From a virus (Duplodnaviria > Heunggongvirae > Uroviricota > Caudoviricetes): a DNA stretch of 43,077 bases. Where the stretch lies: the IMG/VR virus record IMGVR_UViG_2563366968_000005, positions 1 to 43,077 of that record; one strand, written 5' to 3'. Shown here in pieces: positions 9,001-15,000 of the stretch. A program made the position numbers. How positions within the stretch are numbered: position 1 is the stretch's first letter; each line of letters opens with the position of its first letter.

Positions 9001-12000
9001 TACCACGGAAGGTTGATAGCTGATTTCATCGCTTTATTTGCTTCAAGCCACATTTTGGAATCACCAATAAATCTGGCTATTACTGCTTTGTTCTGTGCAG
9101 CACGAAGCATCTGGTGATTAATGACTATTTCATTGCGCATAACGCCTCCAGTTGTTTCTTTGCTGCTCTGATTAATTGTTTAACACGGCGTGATAATTCA
9201 GATTCGTGCGGGTAGAAAGCGGACATGACGCCGCTACCCGCGAGCTGAAAGTGCATCATGGGTAACTCCTTATATTTGATTGCATAACGAAAACGCCTCG
9301 AGTGAAGCGTTATTGGTATGCATATAAAAAGGCCCTCACACGGGAGGGCAAAGAAGATTTCCAATAATCAGAACAAGTCGGCTCCTGTTTAGTTACGAGC
9401 GACATTGCTCACATAGCAGACTCGTAAATCTGCTATAGGCGCTTATTCGCATCGCATGACAACATCAAATTTTTCGAGATTACTTTGTCGCAACAATCCT
9501 TCTTCTACGCGGTCAGCTTTTCTATAATTATCAAATTCGAAATGTTTAATTACTTCTTTTGTTTCTCGCTCTATAACTTCAACGATGTATTTCTTATTCA
9601 TTATTCATCACCTATGGCTTTTTTGATAGCTTCGCTAGCCTTATTAACAGCTCCATACCATTCTGGATATGTTGTCGTTGTTCTATTTTTGGATTGCTTA
9701 AGTAATAACTGAAGTGCTTCGAGAAGGTCAGGTGCTGCCGCTATTAGATTGGCATCTTCAATACATTGAACTTCCTCACAGATTGCAATATACGAACGCC
9801 AGCCTGCGCCATTTTCAAGTGAGTCTGCCTGGATTATTTTAATCTCATCGCCATCCATCATTATTTCCCACTTACCTTCAGTACCTTTAAATTCCATGTT
9901 ATCCTCTGTTGTTTATGCCAAAAAACAAAGGCCACCATCAGGCAGCCTTGTTGTTCTGTTTACCAAGTTCTCTGGCAATCATTGCCGTCGTTCGTATTGC
10001 CCATTTATCGACATATTTCCCATCTTCCATTACAGGAAACATTTCTTCAGGCTTAACCATGCATTCCGATTGCAGCTTGCATCCATTGCATCGCTTGAAT
10101 TGTCCACACCATTGATTTTTATCAATAGTCGTAGTCATACGGATAGTCCTGGTATTGTTCCATCACATCCTGCGGATGCTCTTCGAACTCTTCAAATTCT
10201 TCTTCCATATATCACCTCAAATAAGTGGTTTGCTGCCTAATTTTATTTTCTGGCGACCAACACAAGTCATCTTGCTGTCAGCTGTTTGGATTTCCTGTAG
10301 CCTGCCGCGTAAAGAGCTACATTTGGAAGACATACACCAGTTTCTGGTTGCCTATGCCCAAACTCATTCGCGTACACAATGGCCGCTCTCTCCAGATTGC
10401 GTCTGTATTCTTTCTGTTGCCAGATCACGTCCTGTGCCATGAACTTAATTGGCTTAGCGTCTTCTATGCGCTCAGGCGTTTCGTGAGTACCTTTAGCCTG
10501 AATCTGCGCTCTGCTTAGAGTAGGGCGGTGTAATACTTCTGAACTTATTGCTTCTTCGCGGGCCAGTACGCCGTTAGCTAATGCCTTTGCCTTTAAACGC
10601 TCACGACGACGAGAACGTGAATTGCCTTTGAACTGAGTTCTGCGTGTCATATAGACCTCCTGATGAACTTTGGTGGTGTGGTAGGTGGGAGACCCATTTC
10701 GACCTGTTTCGGCCTACTTCAATTCGGCAATAGTCCCGCAGGCCTCGCCGCTTTACGTGCGACATATTCCCGTCCATGAACCCTTCACCACACCCCAAAG
10801 TTCACTTTGGTTATTGCGCTTTGTCAGCGCCGTAGATTCATATTCGAATCGTTGTATATTCACCGCCCTGGTGAGTAGTGCGTCCTGCTGATGTGTTTAG
10901 TATCACCGCCAGTGGTATTTATGTCAACACCGCCAGAGATAATTTATCACCGCAGATGGTTATCTGTATGTTTTTTATATAGATTTATTTTTTTGCAGGG
11001 GTGTGTGGCTTGGGAGGTGATCGAGAGATCTGAATTGCGATGTTTAGTGAGTTGTATCTATTAATTTTCAAATAAATACAATTGGTTATGTGTTTTGGGG
11101 CGAACGTGAGGCAAAGAAAACCCGGCGCGGTGGCCGGGTTTATTTATTGCTTAGGAGCTTGTTGTGATGACGATTGGTTAGTTGGAGCGCTCGTTAATGG
11201 TTGCTGTGTCGGTACCTGTATTATAATTGGAGCCGGGCTGGTTACTGATGGTGACTTGTCATTGCCGGAGATAATCCAACTTGAGGCTAACATCACGCCA
11301 GACAGAATCACAGTAACTAAAGTCAAGCCAACGGCCATCGCCCACTGAGTCGTTGTAAGTCCCGTTTTCAAACCGCCGATTTCACCTTTAATTTCAGCAA
11401 TACCTCTCTCAATAGAAGAAAATTGCTGAGTATAATAGGTTTTAAAGTCAGCTGATTCGCGACGCATTTCCGCAGCAATAGACTCTACCTCTGATTTGTT
11501 TTGTGAAAGCTTTGCGTCAAGTTCTTCTCTGGACATTCCGCTCACGCTTACCTCCAGGGTATCACTCTTCATCGCTACATCTTCCTTACTTGGGCGCAAA
11601 CCCGTTTCGTCCATGGCGTATGAAACTCTATTTGATACCTTAGCATCAATACCAATACTTTGGTACTGAGATGGATCCCCATAAGGAGAAACGGTTGTCG
11701 CTGCTAGGGTTGCACTAACTATAATACTTGGAAGAACTGATGATGTTGTTCCTGAGGTAGGTTGAACTGAAGAAACTGGCTTCAGTCTTTCCATAGCCCA
11801 TTATCCCTGAGAGCTACCTGTAATGATTTTACTAATGCAACAGCTTGATCCGGGCTCATTGAGACTGACATGTTAGGGGTCAACTCAACTTTTACTTGGA
11901 AGCTATTCTTTCCTTGCTCATCAGACTGCATGTGATGCTCAAATTCATGGCGGTAAAAAGTAATGATTGTTTCAGCACGATCAGGCGTAATAAGAACTGA

Positions 12001-15000
12001 TGTGGCGGTCATGTGCTGAGGTATGATTTTAATAGTGTTATCTGACATAAGTATCCTTTTTGTTTCCTTAGTATTTTTTTGCATTGACATCAGAAATAGC
12101 GAATCCACAAGAGTATGAGTAAAGCTAATCAGTTTAGTGATACGGTGACTATTAAAGTGGTAAACCACATCAAAGCTCGCAGAGTGCATACCAGGCTGTC
12201 ACACATGACAAAGTAACGAGGATGCCTGATCTCATAGCGCTCAAAGAGACATGCCGATAATGGCATTAACCACGCATGACGCCATAAACACGCCGCCAAC
12301 GATGAAGCTGGCTTGGTTCTTCCTGGTAGCGCCAAGAGTCAACAGAACCACTGAAAGGGCAAAAAAAGGTATCGCGATTATGCTGAACGTGTTCATGTTG
12401 ACCTCAACTTATTTCGATTCTCCATCACCCTTAATCCGCCGCCCCATGTGTTTGTTGTGATTCGTTGCTGGCCTTAACCAAACGTCTCTTCAGGCCACTG
12501 GCTGGCGATAACTTTCCCCACAACGGAACAACTCTCATTGCATGGGATCATTGGGTACTGTGGGTTTAGTGGTTGTAAAAACACCTGACCGCTATCCCTG
12601 ATCAGTTTCTTGAAGGTAAACTCATCACCCCCAAGTCTGGCTATGCAGAAATCACCTGGCTCAACAGCCTGCTCAGGGTCAACCAGAATTAACATCCCGT
12701 CAGGAAAACTAGGTTTGGATCCTGTTGGCGCGGTCATGGAATTACCTTCAACCTCAAGCCAGAATGCAGAATCACTGGCTTTTTTGGTTGTGCTTACCCA
12801 TCTCTCCGCATCACCTTTGGTAAAGGTTCTAAGCTCAGGCGAGAACATCCCGGCCTGAACATGAGAAAAAACAGGGTACTCATACTCACTTCTAAGTGAC
12901 GGCTGCATACTAACCGCTTCATACATCTCGTAGATTTCTCTGGCGATTGAAGGGCTAAATTCTTCAACGCTAACGTTGAGAATTTTTGCAAGCAATGCGG
13001 CGTTATAAGCATTTAATGCATTGATGCCATTAAATAAAGCACCAACGCCTGACTGTCCCATCCCCATCTTGTCTGCGACAGATTCCTGGGATAAGCCAAG
13101 TTCATTTTTCTTTTTTTCATAAATAGCTTTAAGGCGACGTGCGTCCTCAAGCTGCTCTTGTGTTAATGGTTTCTTTTTTGCGCTCATACGTTAAATCTAT
13201 CACCGCAAGGGATAAATATCTAACACCGTGCGTGTTGACTATTTTACCTCTAGCGGTGATAATGGTTGCATGTACTAAGGAGGTTGTATGGAACAACGCA
13301 TAACCCTGAAAGATTATGCAATGCGCTTTGGGCAAACCAAGACAGCTAAAGATCTCGGTGTATATCAAAGCGCGATCAACAAGGCCATTCATGCAGGCCG
13401 AAATATTTTTTTAACTATAAACGCTGATGGAAGCGTTTATGCGGAAGAGGTAAAGCCCTTTCCAAGTAACAAAAAAACAACTGCATAAGTAACACCGCTA
13501 TTTTCACAATGGACATTCGTCCTACGTCGCTGACAAAGCGAGTCCCAATATATCTGACCAACTAAGGCCATATGCGTTTCCACGCATACCTTTCAACTAA
13601 CTATTCACTATTGGAAATCTTAAGAAATGGAAAGAACAAGTTACAGCAAACTATCACAGCGTGACGTTGATCGCGCAGAAACAGATTTACTTATCAATCT
13701 GTCAGCTATTACCCAGCGCGGTCTGGCAAAGATGATTGGCTGTCATGAATCGAAGATAAGCAGAACGGACTGGAGATTTATTGCTTCGGTCTTGTGTGCT
13801 TTCGGAATGGCATCAGACATCAGTCCGATTAGCAGGGCTTTTAAGTATGCGCTTGATGGAATCACCAATAAAAAACGCCCGGTGTGCAAGACCGAGCGTT
13901 CTGAACAAATCCAGATGGAATTCTGAGGTCATTACTGGATCAATCCACAGGAGTAATTATGACAAAACAACTCAGTCCTTACCAGGACAAAATTCACAAA
14001 CACATACTACGTGATCGCTTCCTGTCCAGCTTCAAGCAGCCTGGTCGATTCCGGGCTGAGTTGGAAAAAGTGAAGCTGATGCAGAAGGAGAAAGGTCATG
14101 AGTAATCTTGCAACCGTAACACATTTAAGGCCTTCACAACGGCCTGTGGAGCGTCGTGTGGCAGAAGTTGAAGATGGTTATACCCGTCTTGCAAATGCCC
14201 TGTATGAAGAGCTTATCGGCGCAGATTTAACAAAAAATCAGAGTAAGGTTGCCCACGCCATATGCCGTAAAACATACGGATACGGTAAAAAGATGGATCG
14301 CATCTCTGATAGTCAGTTAGCTCAAATTACCAGGCTGCCAAGACAGAAGGTAAACAAGGCCAAGAATGAGCTTATCGCGATGAAGGTAATCCTTCGCGAA
14401 GGCCAGCAAATCGGGCCTAACAAGAACATCGAGGAATGGCAAATCGAAGGGTGTCACTACTCTGGTGATAATGTCACTGCATTGGTGACAAAAAGTGTCA
14501 CCAAAACGGTGACAGCGCTGTCACCAAAACAGGGACACACAAAAGAAACTATTACAAAAGAAAAAAGAAATAATAAAAACACTATGTCCGAAAGTGTTCG
14601 GACGGAGTGTGAAAAATCATCTGACCGTCACGAAGAAACCGACAAGGCATTCGAGGAAATATTCTGGTGTGCAGGCATGCGGAAAGCCGGGAAAAAAAAC
14701 GCAGCTTCGGCATTCAGAACACAGTTCAGGGAATGGCGTAAAACTACCAGGGGTACGGCAAGCGAGTTTGCCACGATGCTGGCAGAAGACATCGCATGCA
14801 GGAATGGTAAGCAGTTCGGATTCGACAGGTTGTTACCATCGAGCTACTTGAACGGTCAGCGCTGGAACGACGAAAAGCCAGAAACCATTCAACCACAATC
14901 CAAACCATCATCCGCAATCACCGTATCGAAAACTGGCTACGTGTTTTTCGACAGGTGAACCATGAAATCAAAAATCAAATCGCTACTGGTCGCTGGTTAT

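What the first reader, a model, noticed from the sequence alone, without database searches (positions are those of the whole stretch)
10267..13541. Immunity region is a lambda/P22 mosaic: lambda cI-cro-operators with P22-type N and boxB hairpins
The operators and cI/cro are lambda, but the N protein ends like P22 gp24 and both nutL (10816-10830) and nutR (about 13527-13541) carry P22-type boxB hairpins. N and its RNA targets have co-varied as one unit while repressor and operators co-varied as another. cII is itself a hybrid with a foreign N-terminus and lambda-like C-terminus, and the oop-like region overlaps its end. This gives unusually clear module boundaries over a few hundred base pairs.
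Basis: partly seen in the sequence, partly recalled or inferred. Interest (0 to 1): 0.5.

Follow-up and report, generated by a model that had tools for sequence, protein, structure and literature searches.

The report
Known HK97-type lambdoid immunity region
This stretch is the well-described immunity region of phage HK97 and its relatives, with a lambda repressor switch next to an H-19B/HK97-type N antiterminator whose RNA hairpins resemble those of P22; it is a textbook case of modular phage mosaicism, not a new one.

Summary
cI, Cro and five of the six operators are lambda's; OR1 has one substitution. N and both nut sites are not lambda's. nutL is GCGCUGACAAAGCGC, identical to P22 boxB-left. 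nutR is UCGCUGACAAAGCGA. cII is a hybrid whose lambda-type tail overlaps an 81-nt oop homologue.

The "lambda/P22" label is imprecise. Window 10206-13968 is 98.4% identical to phage HK97. The N protein is 100% HK97 N and 97.6% H-19B N, and both nut regions are base-for-base H-19B's. P22 gp24 matches only the last ~30 residues by BLASTP, plus a loose resemblance in the arginine-rich motif. There is no DNA similarity to P22 beyond the 15-nt boxB. That C-terminal tail also occurs on N proteins with unrelated RNA-binding motifs.

The same N+nut unit occurs with three different repressors, so the idea of independently reassorting modules holds. This was already published: HK97 (Juhala 2000), lambda-immunity wild phages (Degnan 2007; GenBank EF120460 annotates every element) and H-19B N/nut (Neely & Friedman). 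At least 43 complete E. coli genomes carry most of it.

Verdict: already known, low interest. Unexplained parts: a three-gene cassette in the rexAB slot and a rare cII/oop micro-swap.

The parts
10267..10650 (-). N antitermination gene (127 aa), HK97/H-19B type. Arginine-rich motif 12-RSRRRER-18; C-terminal tail LPNVALYAAGYRKSKQLTAR.
   Evidence: PF25694; 100% HK97 N, 97.6% H-19B N. ARM as defined for H-19B N in PMC3526286.
10816..10830 (-). nutL boxB hairpin GCGCUGACAAAGCGC (5-bp stem, GACAA loop).
   Evidence: Identical to P22 nutL boxB and to HK97/H-19B. Annotated as nutL boxB in mEp234 record EF120460.
10835..10850 (-). nutL spacer hairpin GAUUC-GAAUAU-GAAUC, 4 nt (UACG) upstream of boxB.
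   Evidence: z = -3.9 for the two-hairpin fold. Identical in H-19B and HK97 over this hairpin, absent from lambda and P22.
10874..10882 (-). Weak boxA-like CGCACTACT, annotated as putative nutL boxA in mEp234. No canonical CGCTCTT(T)A is present in nutL.
10899..10961 (-). pL promoter (TTGACA-17-GATACT, 10927-10899) with OL1 10901-10917, OL2 10925-10941 and OL3 10945-10961, all identical to lambda's.
   Evidence: Lambda similarity resumes at 10860.
11113..11141 (-). Timm-like terminator closing the immunity operon. Lambda similarity ends here (11140).
11144..12396 (-). Three-gene cassette in the slot that rexAB occupies in lambda: HK97 gp48-like (11144-11794, 216 aa), gp49-like (11782-12048, 88 aa) and a 51-aa hydrophobic, probably membrane ORF (12241-12396). 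Function unknown.
   Evidence: No lambda similarity. The same cassette is 99.8% identical in HK225.
12474..13187 (-). cI repressor, lambda specificity (2 aa differences from lambda cI, identical to HK97 cI).
13198..13263 (+). OR3 13198-13214, OR2 13221-13237 and OR1 13245-13261 (one G->A change, as in HK97), with pR (TTGACT-17-GATAAT, 13235-13263). pRM is assumed to lie where lambda's does.
13288..13488 (+). cro, lambda type (K39N, identical to HK97 Cro).
13496..13504 (+). nutR boxA-like CGCTATTTT (as in H-19B; HK97 has CGCTCTTTT). The lambda-to-H-19B-type junction lies at about 13502/13503.
13511..13522 (+). nutR spacer hairpin GGAC-AUUC-GUCC, 4 nt (UACG) upstream of boxB.
   Evidence: [quoted passage not shown]
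13527..13541 (+). nutR boxB hairpin UCGCUGACAAAGCGA.
13627..13926 (+). cII (99 aa). Residues 1 to about 80 are HK97/H-19B type and the last ~20 are lambda type ([17 protein letters not shown]). A pRE/CII site TTGC-N6-TTGT lies on the - strand at 13636-13649.
   Evidence: The exact protein is on 9 public contigs.
13868..13948 (-). oop antisense RNA homologue (81 nt, two hairpins, T-tailed terminator at 13902-13872), overlapping the last 59 nt of cII. Lambda-type sequence.

Best explanation
This is the early regulatory (immC) region of a lambdoid prophage, and it is essentially the HK97 immunity region. It is built from separately exchangeable modules.

(1) Lambda-specificity switch. cI, Cro, OL1-3, OR1-3, pL, pR and pRM work as in lambda. 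cI bound at OL and OR keeps the prophage silent and makes the lysogen immune to lambda-immunity phages.

(2) H-19B/HK97-type antitermination unit. N is translated from the pL transcript. Its arginine-rich motif (RSRRRER) binds the GACAA-loop boxB hairpins in the nutL and nutR RNAs. With NusA, it converts RNA polymerase to a termination-resistant form that reads into the delayed-early genes. Each nut site also has a spacer hairpin just upstream of boxB and only a degenerate boxA, as in H-19B.

(3) A cassette of unknown function sits in the slot that rexAB fills in lambda, presumably co-transcribed with cI from pRM.

(4) An HK97/H-19B-type cII carries a lambda-type C-terminal tail and the overlapping oop antisense RNA.

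Shown here: sequence identities, breakpoints, hairpin folds, and the reassortment of N+nut with different repressors. Inferred from the characterised homologues (lambda, H-19B, P22): immunity specificity, N-boxB binding and the host-factor requirement.
For: Identity to HK97: window 10206-13968 aligns to HK97 at 98.4% over 3764 nt in one block. cI, Cro and N are 100% identical to HK97's proteins.

Breakpoints against lambda:
- ral, 9905-10233: 97.3%
- N and nutL, 10234-10859: no similarity
- pL/OL/Timm, 10860-11140: 89.7%
- rex-slot cassette, 11141-12477: no similarity
- cI-OR-cro, 12478-13502: 97.7%
- nutR and cII body, 13503-13861: no similarity
- cII tail/oop, 13862-13966: 92.4%

Nut sites: nutL and nutR are identical to H-19B's over the aligned regions. 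The two-hairpin folds are predicted with z = -3.9 and -2.2.

Functional homologue: H-19B N, its ARM 12-RSRRRER-18, its RNAP-binding C-terminal domain and its two-hairpin nutR have been characterised experimentally (PMC3526286).

boxB structure: in the solved P22 N-peptide complex (PDB 1A4T) the GACAA loop forms a GNRA-like fold with the C looped out (PMC12550061).

Reassortment: the same N+boxB occurs with three different repressors.

Prior annotation: GenBank EF120460 (mEp234 immunity region, from the lambda-immunity wild-phage study) annotates the same nutL/nutR boxA and boxB, OL1-3, OR1-3, Timm, pRE and cII.

Occurrence: 43 complete E. coli genomes hold at least 80% of the 4-kb region. All five proteins checked are exact matches in public collections.
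Against: Nothing in the sequence contradicts this explanation. All functional statements are by homology. No immunity or antitermination assay exists for this particular prophage.

OR1 carries one substitution relative to lambda, and cI and Cro carry 2 and 1 substitutions, all shared with HK97. Immunity equivalence therefore rests on HK97's published lambda immunity, which I recall from Juhala et al. 2000 and Degnan et al. 2007 but could not read here.

The statement that NusB and S10 are not required rests on the title of Neely & Friedman 2000 and on my memory of its abstract.
Confidence: 0.93

Rival explanations
1. A direct lambda x P22 recombinant: the N gene and nut sites were acquired from P22 or a close P22 relative.
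For: nutL boxB is 15/15 identical to P22 nutL boxB. The last ~30 residues of N match gp24 at 22/33. The ARM is loosely alike (GNSRSRRRERLKAKAL versus GNAKTRRHERRRKLAI). The prophage's structural half is P22-like. The segment just right of oop (13934-14202) is 83.6% identical to P22 orf48/gene 18.
Against: There is no blastn similarity to P22 anywhere in 10234-10859 or 13503-13861. N is 127 aa against 100 aa for gp24, and BLASTP finds no match outside the tail. N is 100% HK97 N. The nut flanks, spacer hairpins and boxA variants are H-19B's, not P22's. P22's nutR boxB is different. The C-terminal tail is shared by many N types.
Confidence: 0.03
2. N and the nut sites are simply lambda's with scattered substitutions.
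For: N aligns weakly to lambda N in the ARM (14/41, E=0.012 for a single comparison). Gene order is lambda's.
Against: There is no DNA similarity to lambda across N and nutL or across nutR and the cII body, while the flanks are 90-98% identical. The boxB loop is GACAA, against lambda's GAAGA and GAAAA, and the stems differ (GCGCU versus GCCCU). The lambda boxA CGCTCTTA(A) is absent from nutL.
Confidence: 0.01
3. The mosaic is an assembly chimera, joining reads from two different prophages at shared sequences.
For: The junctions fall in short sequences conserved among lambdoid phages, such as the pL start region CAGGACGCAC, the cro end/boxA GCATAAGTAACACCGCT and the oop region. Assemblers could mis-join at such places.
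Against: The same joined arrangement is present in the independently sequenced phages HK97, mEp234 and HK106. It is also present in 43 complete E. coli genomes, several of them at 99.1% identity over the full 4 kb including the hybrid cII.
Confidence: 0.02

Closest known systems
Phage HK97 immunity region (AF069529 25973-29729; Juhala et al. 2000)
   Same: 98.4% DNA identity over window 10206-13968. Identical N, gp48, cI and Cro proteins (gp49 not compared at protein level). The same OL/OR operators including the OR1 G->A change. The same nutL and nutR boxB and spacer hairpins.
   Different: The cII C-terminus and oop are lambda-type here but HK97-type in HK97. The cII N-terminal codons and the nutR boxA follow H-19B (CGCTATTTT against HK97's CGCTCTTTT). 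The left flank is lambda-type ral rather than HK97 gp45. The right flank is a different replication module. The virion genes are P22-like rather than HK97's.
Wild phages with lambda immunity: mEp234, HK106, HK544, CL707, HK244, HK542, mEp332 (Degnan et al. 2007; GenBank EF120455-EF120461)
   Same: Lambda cI/cro/operators combined with varied N/nut types and varied genes between cI and N. mEp234 and HK106 carry the identical N (100%) and the same annotated nut boxA and boxB. The cI-N interval is cited as a known hotspot of mosaic diversity.
   Different: mEp234 and HK106 carry hicAB plus another gene in the rex slot, where the window has the HK97 gp48/gp49 cassette.
Phage H-19B N / nutL / nutR antitermination system (Neely & Friedman 1998, 2000; Sen laboratory)
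   Same: N is 97.6% identical. The nutL and nutR regions are identical over the aligned stretches, including boxB, the spacer hairpins and boxA-like CGCTATTTT. The cII body is of the same type. ARM RSRRRER and the two-hairpin nutR are as described in PMC3526286.
   Different: H-19B has an unrelated cI, Cro and operators.
Phage P22 gene 24 protein / boxB (PDB 1A4T)
   Same: nutL boxB is identical (GCGCUGACAAAGCGC) and both boxB copies here have the GACAA loop. The ARM is related and the C-terminal ~30 residues are 67% identical. The GACAA loop forms a GNRA-like fold with the C extruded.
   Different: There is no DNA similarity in N or the nut flanks. The central part of N is unrelated (127 against 100 aa). 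P22 has a canonical boxA (CGCTCTTTA) and no spacer hairpin, and its nutR boxB is CCGCCGACAACGCGG.
Phage lambda immunity region
   Same: cI (235/237), Cro (65/66), five of six operators identical, pL, pR, Timm, ral, and the cII C-terminal tail with oop.
   Different: N, nutL, nutR and most of cII are of another type. rexA and rexB are replaced. There is no room for sieB in the 128-nt gap between ral and N.

Membership tests
Lambda immunity group (imm-lambda) | cI repressor with lambda's DNA-binding domain | tested here: met
   cI is 237 aa and differs from lambda cI only at T3A and K71N. It is identical to HK97 cI.
Lambda immunity group (imm-lambda) | Six 17-bp operators OL1-3 and OR1-3 with lambda sequences and spacing | tested here: met
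   Five are identical. OR1 has one substitution (TACCTCTaGCGGTGATA), the same as in HK97.
Lambda immunity group (imm-lambda) | Lambda-type Cro | tested here: met
   65/66 identical (K39N). Pfam Cro E=3e-35.
Lambda immunity group (imm-lambda) | Lysogen immune to lambda and vice versa | not testable with these tools
   Needs plating tests. Inferred from the identity to HK97 cI and operators.
H-19B/HK97-type N-nut antitermination | N protein of this type with ARM 12-RSRRRER-18 | tested here: met
   100% identical to HK97 N and 97.6% to H-19B N. The ARM is present. The ARM definition is from PMC3526286.
H-19B/HK97-type N-nut antitermination | boxB with GACAA loop at both nutL and nutR, preceded by a spacer hairpin | tested here: met
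   The regions are identical to H-19B's.
H-19B/HK97-type N-nut antitermination | N-dependent readthrough with a reduced Nus-factor requirement | not testable with these tools
   Experimental property of H-19B, known here from the title of Neely & Friedman 2000 seen.
P22 gene 24 / nut system | N protein homologous to gp24 over its length | tested here: not met
   BLASTP aligns only residues 98-127 (22/33). No DNA similarity.
P22 gene 24 / nut system | P22 boxB sequence | tested here: met
   nutL is 15/15 identical to P22 boxB-left. nutR has the same loop with one compensatory stem change. P22's own nutR boxB differs.
P22 gene 24 / nut system | Canonical boxA (CGCTCTTTA) a short linear spacer upstream of boxB | tested here: not met
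   nutL has no such sequence. nutR has CGCTATTTT. Both spacers carry a hairpin that P22 lacks.
Lambda N / nut system | Lambda N and boxB GCCCUGA(A/G)AAAGGGC with boxA CGCUCUUA | tested here: not met
   No DNA similarity. N aligns only weakly in the ARM. boxB loop and stem differ.
CII transcriptional activators with oop antisense RNA | Phage_CII domain, a TTGC-N6-TTGC-like site at pRE, and a convergent oop RNA overlapping the 3' end | tested here: met
   PF05269 E=2e-33. TTGC-N6-TTGT at 13636-13649, read from the sequence at the position of the mEp234 CII-site annotation. The 81-nt oop homologue has lambda's two-hairpin fold and terminator.

The most novel reading that the evidence does not exclude
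The mosaic itself is already described. Two pieces inside the coordinates are not explained by anything I could find.

(a) The three-gene cassette in lambda's rexAB slot (51-aa probable membrane ORF, gp49-like 88 aa, gp48-like 216 aa; window 11144-12396) could be an uncharacterised prophage-encoded exclusion or abortive-infection system expressed with cI. A distant gp48 relative occupies the same slot in HK542 and HK244.

(b) The rare cII variant, with an HK97/H-19B body and a lambda C-terminal tail plus oop, could mean that the cII tail and its overlapping antisense RNA are exchanged as a sub-genic control module.

The probability given is for (a).
Probability: 0.25. Interest if true: 0.4.

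Novelty: already known. Interest (0 to 1): 0.1.

Why it matters
It matters little as a discovery. The arrangement has been in GenBank since the HK97 genome, was analysed in detail for wild phages with lambda immunity, and its N/nut unit has been dissected experimentally in H-19B.

It is useful for annotation:
- It identifies this prophage as lambda-immune.
- It predicts that early antitermination follows H-19B rules (GACAA boxB, spacer hairpin, weak boxA) rather than lambda rules.
- It shows the HK97-type early region sitting in a P22-like, K1-capsule-specific podovirus prophage.

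Tried and rejected
- Rfam, at gathering threshold on the whole window and at E<=1 on 9000-15000, found no family for the nut sites or oop. It found only sar RNA and two tRNAs elsewhere, plus three chance-level hits.
- A PDB sequence search with N found nothing, even at E<=10. The deposited N peptides may be too short for phmmer to score.
- Degnan et al. 2007 could not be opened by DOI. I relied on its GenBank records and on how later papers cite it.
- Searches for a statement of HK97's lambda immunity in PMC12671112, and for H-19B details in PMC3177189 and PMC8632103, gave nothing or only reference-list entries. 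Two literature calls failed on a term shorter than three characters.
- Pfam, PHROGs and PADLOC gave no function for the gp48-like, gp49-like and 51-aa proteins. There was only a sub-threshold PspC-TM hit for the 51-aa ORF and two PHROGs families of unknown function. A literature search for HK97 gp48/gp49 returned only unrelated papers.
- The 135-aa reading of ORF 11782-12189 was rejected in favour of the 88-aa start at 12048. That start has an AGGA Shine-Dalgarno sequence and matches the HK97 gp49 annotation.
- I did not run the large protein-database searches or structure predictions on the cassette, because they do not bear on the finding given.

Full report
WHAT IS THERE. Window 10267-13541 and its flanks hold a complete lambdoid early-control region. 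From left to right:
- ral (9938-10138, -)
- N (10267-10650, -, 127 aa; Pfam N_peptide)
- nutL
- pL with OL1-3
- a Timm-like terminator
- three small genes
- cI (12474-13187, -)
- OR3-OR1 with pR (pRM assumed at its lambda position)
- cro (13288-13488, +)
- nutR
- cII (13627-13926, +)
- an oop homologue
- a DUF2740 gene and an O-like replication gene

CHECK OF THE OBSERVATION.

The 13-nt boxB core CGCTGACAAAGCG occurs twice in the 43-kb window: at 10817-10829 (-), between pL and N, and at 13528-13540 (+), 39 nt after the cro stop. Allowing two mismatches gives 6 matches against 1.4 expected, and none of 100 shuffles reaches 6.

nutL boxB is GCGCUGACAAAGCGC, 15/15 identical to P22 nutL boxB. nutR boxB is UCGCUGACAAAGCGA, with the same loop and one compensatory change of the outer pair. 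Both fold as a 5-bp stem with a GACAA loop.

OL1, OL2, OL3, OR2 and OR3 are identical to lambda's. OR1 has one G->A change. cI has two substitutions relative to lambda (T3A, K71N) and Cro has one (K39N).

N's last ~30 residues match P22 gp24 at 22/33.

cII has a non-lambda body and a lambda-type tail, [17 protein letters not shown].

An 81-nt homologue of lambda oop RNA (13948->13868, - strand) has the same two-hairpin fold, a T-tailed terminator and the conserved TGTCATAAT -10 region. It overlaps the last 59 nt of cII.

WHAT IT REALLY IS. A megablast against phage records shows that window 10206-13968 is one 3764-nt block 98.4% identical to phage HK97 (AF069529 25973-29729). N, cI and Cro are 100% identical to HK97's proteins, and the 216-aa ORF is 100% HK97 gp48.

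N is also 100% identical to the N of mEp234 and HK106, 98-99% to the N of many Stx-converting phages, and 97.6% to H-19B N. The nutL and nutR regions are identical to H-19B's across the aligned stretches.

So the non-lambda partner is the H-19B/HK97-type N-nut unit, not P22.
- P22 shows no blastn similarity anywhere in N, the nut flanks or the cII body.
- P22's nutR boxB is a different sequence, CCGCCGACAACGCGG.
- At protein level BLASTP detects only the C-terminal tail.
- The arginine-rich motifs are loosely alike in the multiple alignment: GNSRSRRRERLKAKAL against GNAKTRRHERRRKLAI. This fits their shared GACAA boxB.
- The tail LPNVALYAAGYRKSKQLTAR is also carried by N proteins with quite different RNA-binding motifs (HK140, mEp213, VT2-Sakai). 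It is a widespread C-terminal module, not a P22 marker.

BREAKPOINTS AGAINST LAMBDA.

| Window segment | Content | Identity to lambda |
|---|---|---|
| 9905-10233 | ral region | 97.3% |
| 10234-10859 | N and nutL | none |
| 10860-11140 | pL/OL/Timm | 89.7% |
| 11141-12477 | rex-slot cassette | none |
| 12478-13502 | cI-OR-cro | 97.7% |
| 13503-13861 | nutR and cII body | none |
| 13862-13966 | cII tail/oop | 92.4% |

From 13934 the sequence becomes P22-like (orf48/gene 18 start, 83.6%).

The junctions sit in short sequences shared by all lambdoid phages compared:
- CAGGACGCAC at the start of the pL transcript
- GCATAAGTAAC.CCGCT at the cro stop and boxA
- ATTACTGGATC.ATC.ACAGGAGT around oop

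Around oop there are three type changes within about 100 bp: HK97/H-19B-type cII, then lambda-type tail and oop, then P22-type orf48.

Relative to HK97, the window differs mainly in three places: at 13600-13720, where it follows H-19B; at 13850-13968, where it follows lambda; and outside 10206-13968.

NUT ANATOMY. Each nut site has a second hairpin 4 nt (UACG) upstream of boxB. In nutL it is GAUUC-GAAUAU-GAAUC and in nutR it is GGAC-AUUC-GUCC. The sequences differ but the position is the same. Lambda and P22 lack this hairpin.

[quoted passage not shown] A canonical boxA is absent from nutL. The mEp234 record marks a weak CGCACTACT there. nutR has CGCTATTTT.

MECHANISM (inferred from characterised homologues). 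cI bound at OL and OR represses pL and pR and confers lambda immunity. On derepression, N is made from the pL transcript. Its ARM (12-RSRRRER-18, where mutations abolish H-19B N function) binds the GACAA boxB hairpins. In the P22 complex (PDB 1A4T) this loop folds like a GNRA tetraloop with the C extruded. N with NusA then makes RNA polymerase resistant to tR1, tL1 and downstream terminators. cII activates pRE through TTGC-N6-TTGT at 13636-13649, which I read from the sequence at the position where the mEp234 record annotates the CII site. oop is antisense to the end of cII.

TEST OF THE CO-VARIATION IDEA. The identical N ARM and boxB pair is found next to three unrelated repressors: lambda-type (window, HK97, mEp234), H-19B-type, and Stx2-86-type. 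Conversely, lambda-type cI and operators occur with lambda N and GAAAA/GAAGA boxB in lambda itself.

This is the classical modular picture of lambdoid phages. cI-cro co-transfer has been quantified (PMC9836094). [quoted passage not shown] 2007). GenBank EF120460 from that study annotates every element found here.

HOW COMMON. In 5,426 complete E. coli genomes, 43 hold at least 80% of the 4-kb region. Several hold it at 99.1% identity over its whole length, hybrid cII included. The 51-aa ORF occurs on 772 and the exact hybrid cII on 9.

CONTEXT. The window is a prophage with the following features:
- It lies next to a pectinesterase-like host gene. From memory, E. coli ybhC is such a gene and flanks lambda attB.
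- It has a lambda-type integrase.
- Its virion half is P22-like and resembles CUS-3 and phiv205-1.
- Its tailspike is an endosialidase.
- It carries a P22-type immI region (ant and sar RNA).

VERDICT. The only unexplained pieces are the rex-slot cassette (no Pfam, PADLOC or functional PHROGs assignment) and the rare lambda-type cII tail and oop on an HK97/H-19B cII body.

Noticed in passing
window 11144-12396 (- strand): In the slot where lambda has rexA/rexB, between cI and the Timm terminator, lie three ORFs. They are a 51-aa ORF with two hydrophobic stretches (12241-12396), an 88-aa gp49-like protein (11782-12048) and a 216-aa gp48-like protein with a hydrophobic C-terminal segment (11144-11794). 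None has a Pfam, PADLOC or functional PHROGs assignment. The same cassette is 99.8-100% identical in HK97, HK225 and Lambdavirus PDP110P1. A 28%-identical gp48 relative lies in the sequenced immunity-region fragments of HK542 and HK244. It may be an uncharacterised exclusion system.
   Followed up: partly
window 13862-13968: There are three type changes within about 100 bp around oop: HK97/H-19B-type cII body, then lambda-type cII tail and oop (with a 3-nt insertion in the terminator loop that gives cII PVCKT instead of PAAT), then P22-type orf48. The exact hybrid cII protein is on only 9 public contigs, whereas N is on at least 1000.
   Followed up: partly
window 1-2588: The window starts with a pectinesterase-like gene (1-1284, -), followed by a lambda-type integrase with an arm-binding domain (1419-2588, -). 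From memory, E. coli ybhC is a pectinesterase-like gene flanking lambda attB, so the prophage may sit at the lambda attachment site. This was not checked against a reference genome.
   Followed up: no
window 2500-3773: An insertion-sequence transposase (rve integrase core with HTH_21, 2868-3773, plus a 136-aa upstream ORF) lies immediately next to the phage integrase.
   Followed up: no
window 39880-42825: The tailspike has a P22-type head-binding domain fused to a complete endosialidase (K1 polysialic-acid depolymerase) with its intramolecular chaperone, as in the K1 prophage CUS-3. The HK97-type early region is therefore carried by a P22-like, K1-capsule-specific podovirus.
   Followed up: partly
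window 36454-39779: A P22-type second immunity region (immI) is present. It comprises the antirepressor Ant (38811-39779, P22_AR domains) overlapped by sar antisense RNA (38809-38876, -, Rfam 95.6 bits), a ClpP-like protease gene (37563-38099, -) and a P63C-domain gene (36454-37509). An Ant/sar circuit thus coexists with a lambda-specificity cI.
   Followed up: no
window 20218-20955: tRNA-Asn (GTT, 20800-20874) and tRNA-Thr (TGT, 20880-20955) lie directly downstream of the Q antiterminator gene (20218-20736).
   Followed up: no
window 14098-16946: The replication module differs from HK97's. It has an O-like initiator (286 aa) followed by a 626-aa Toprim plus DnaB-like primase-helicase, as in epsilon34, Sf101 and Oslo-type phages, instead of a DnaB-like P protein.
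   Followed up: no
window 10139-10266: ral is only 128 nt from the N stop codon, so there is no room for the gene lambda carries between ral and N (sieB, from memory). Lambda-type and HK97-type sequences overlap by 28 bp (10206-10233) at this junction.
   Followed up: no
L011 (phage mEp213, PV340538) 1200-4600: mEp213 has an HK620-type N (ARM DNARNRRRARRQAQRE). Yet a lambda-type boxB (GCCCTGAAAAAGGGC) lies 26 nt after its cro, and a second gene is annotated as N. This apparent ARM/boxB mismatch was not explained.
   Followed up: no
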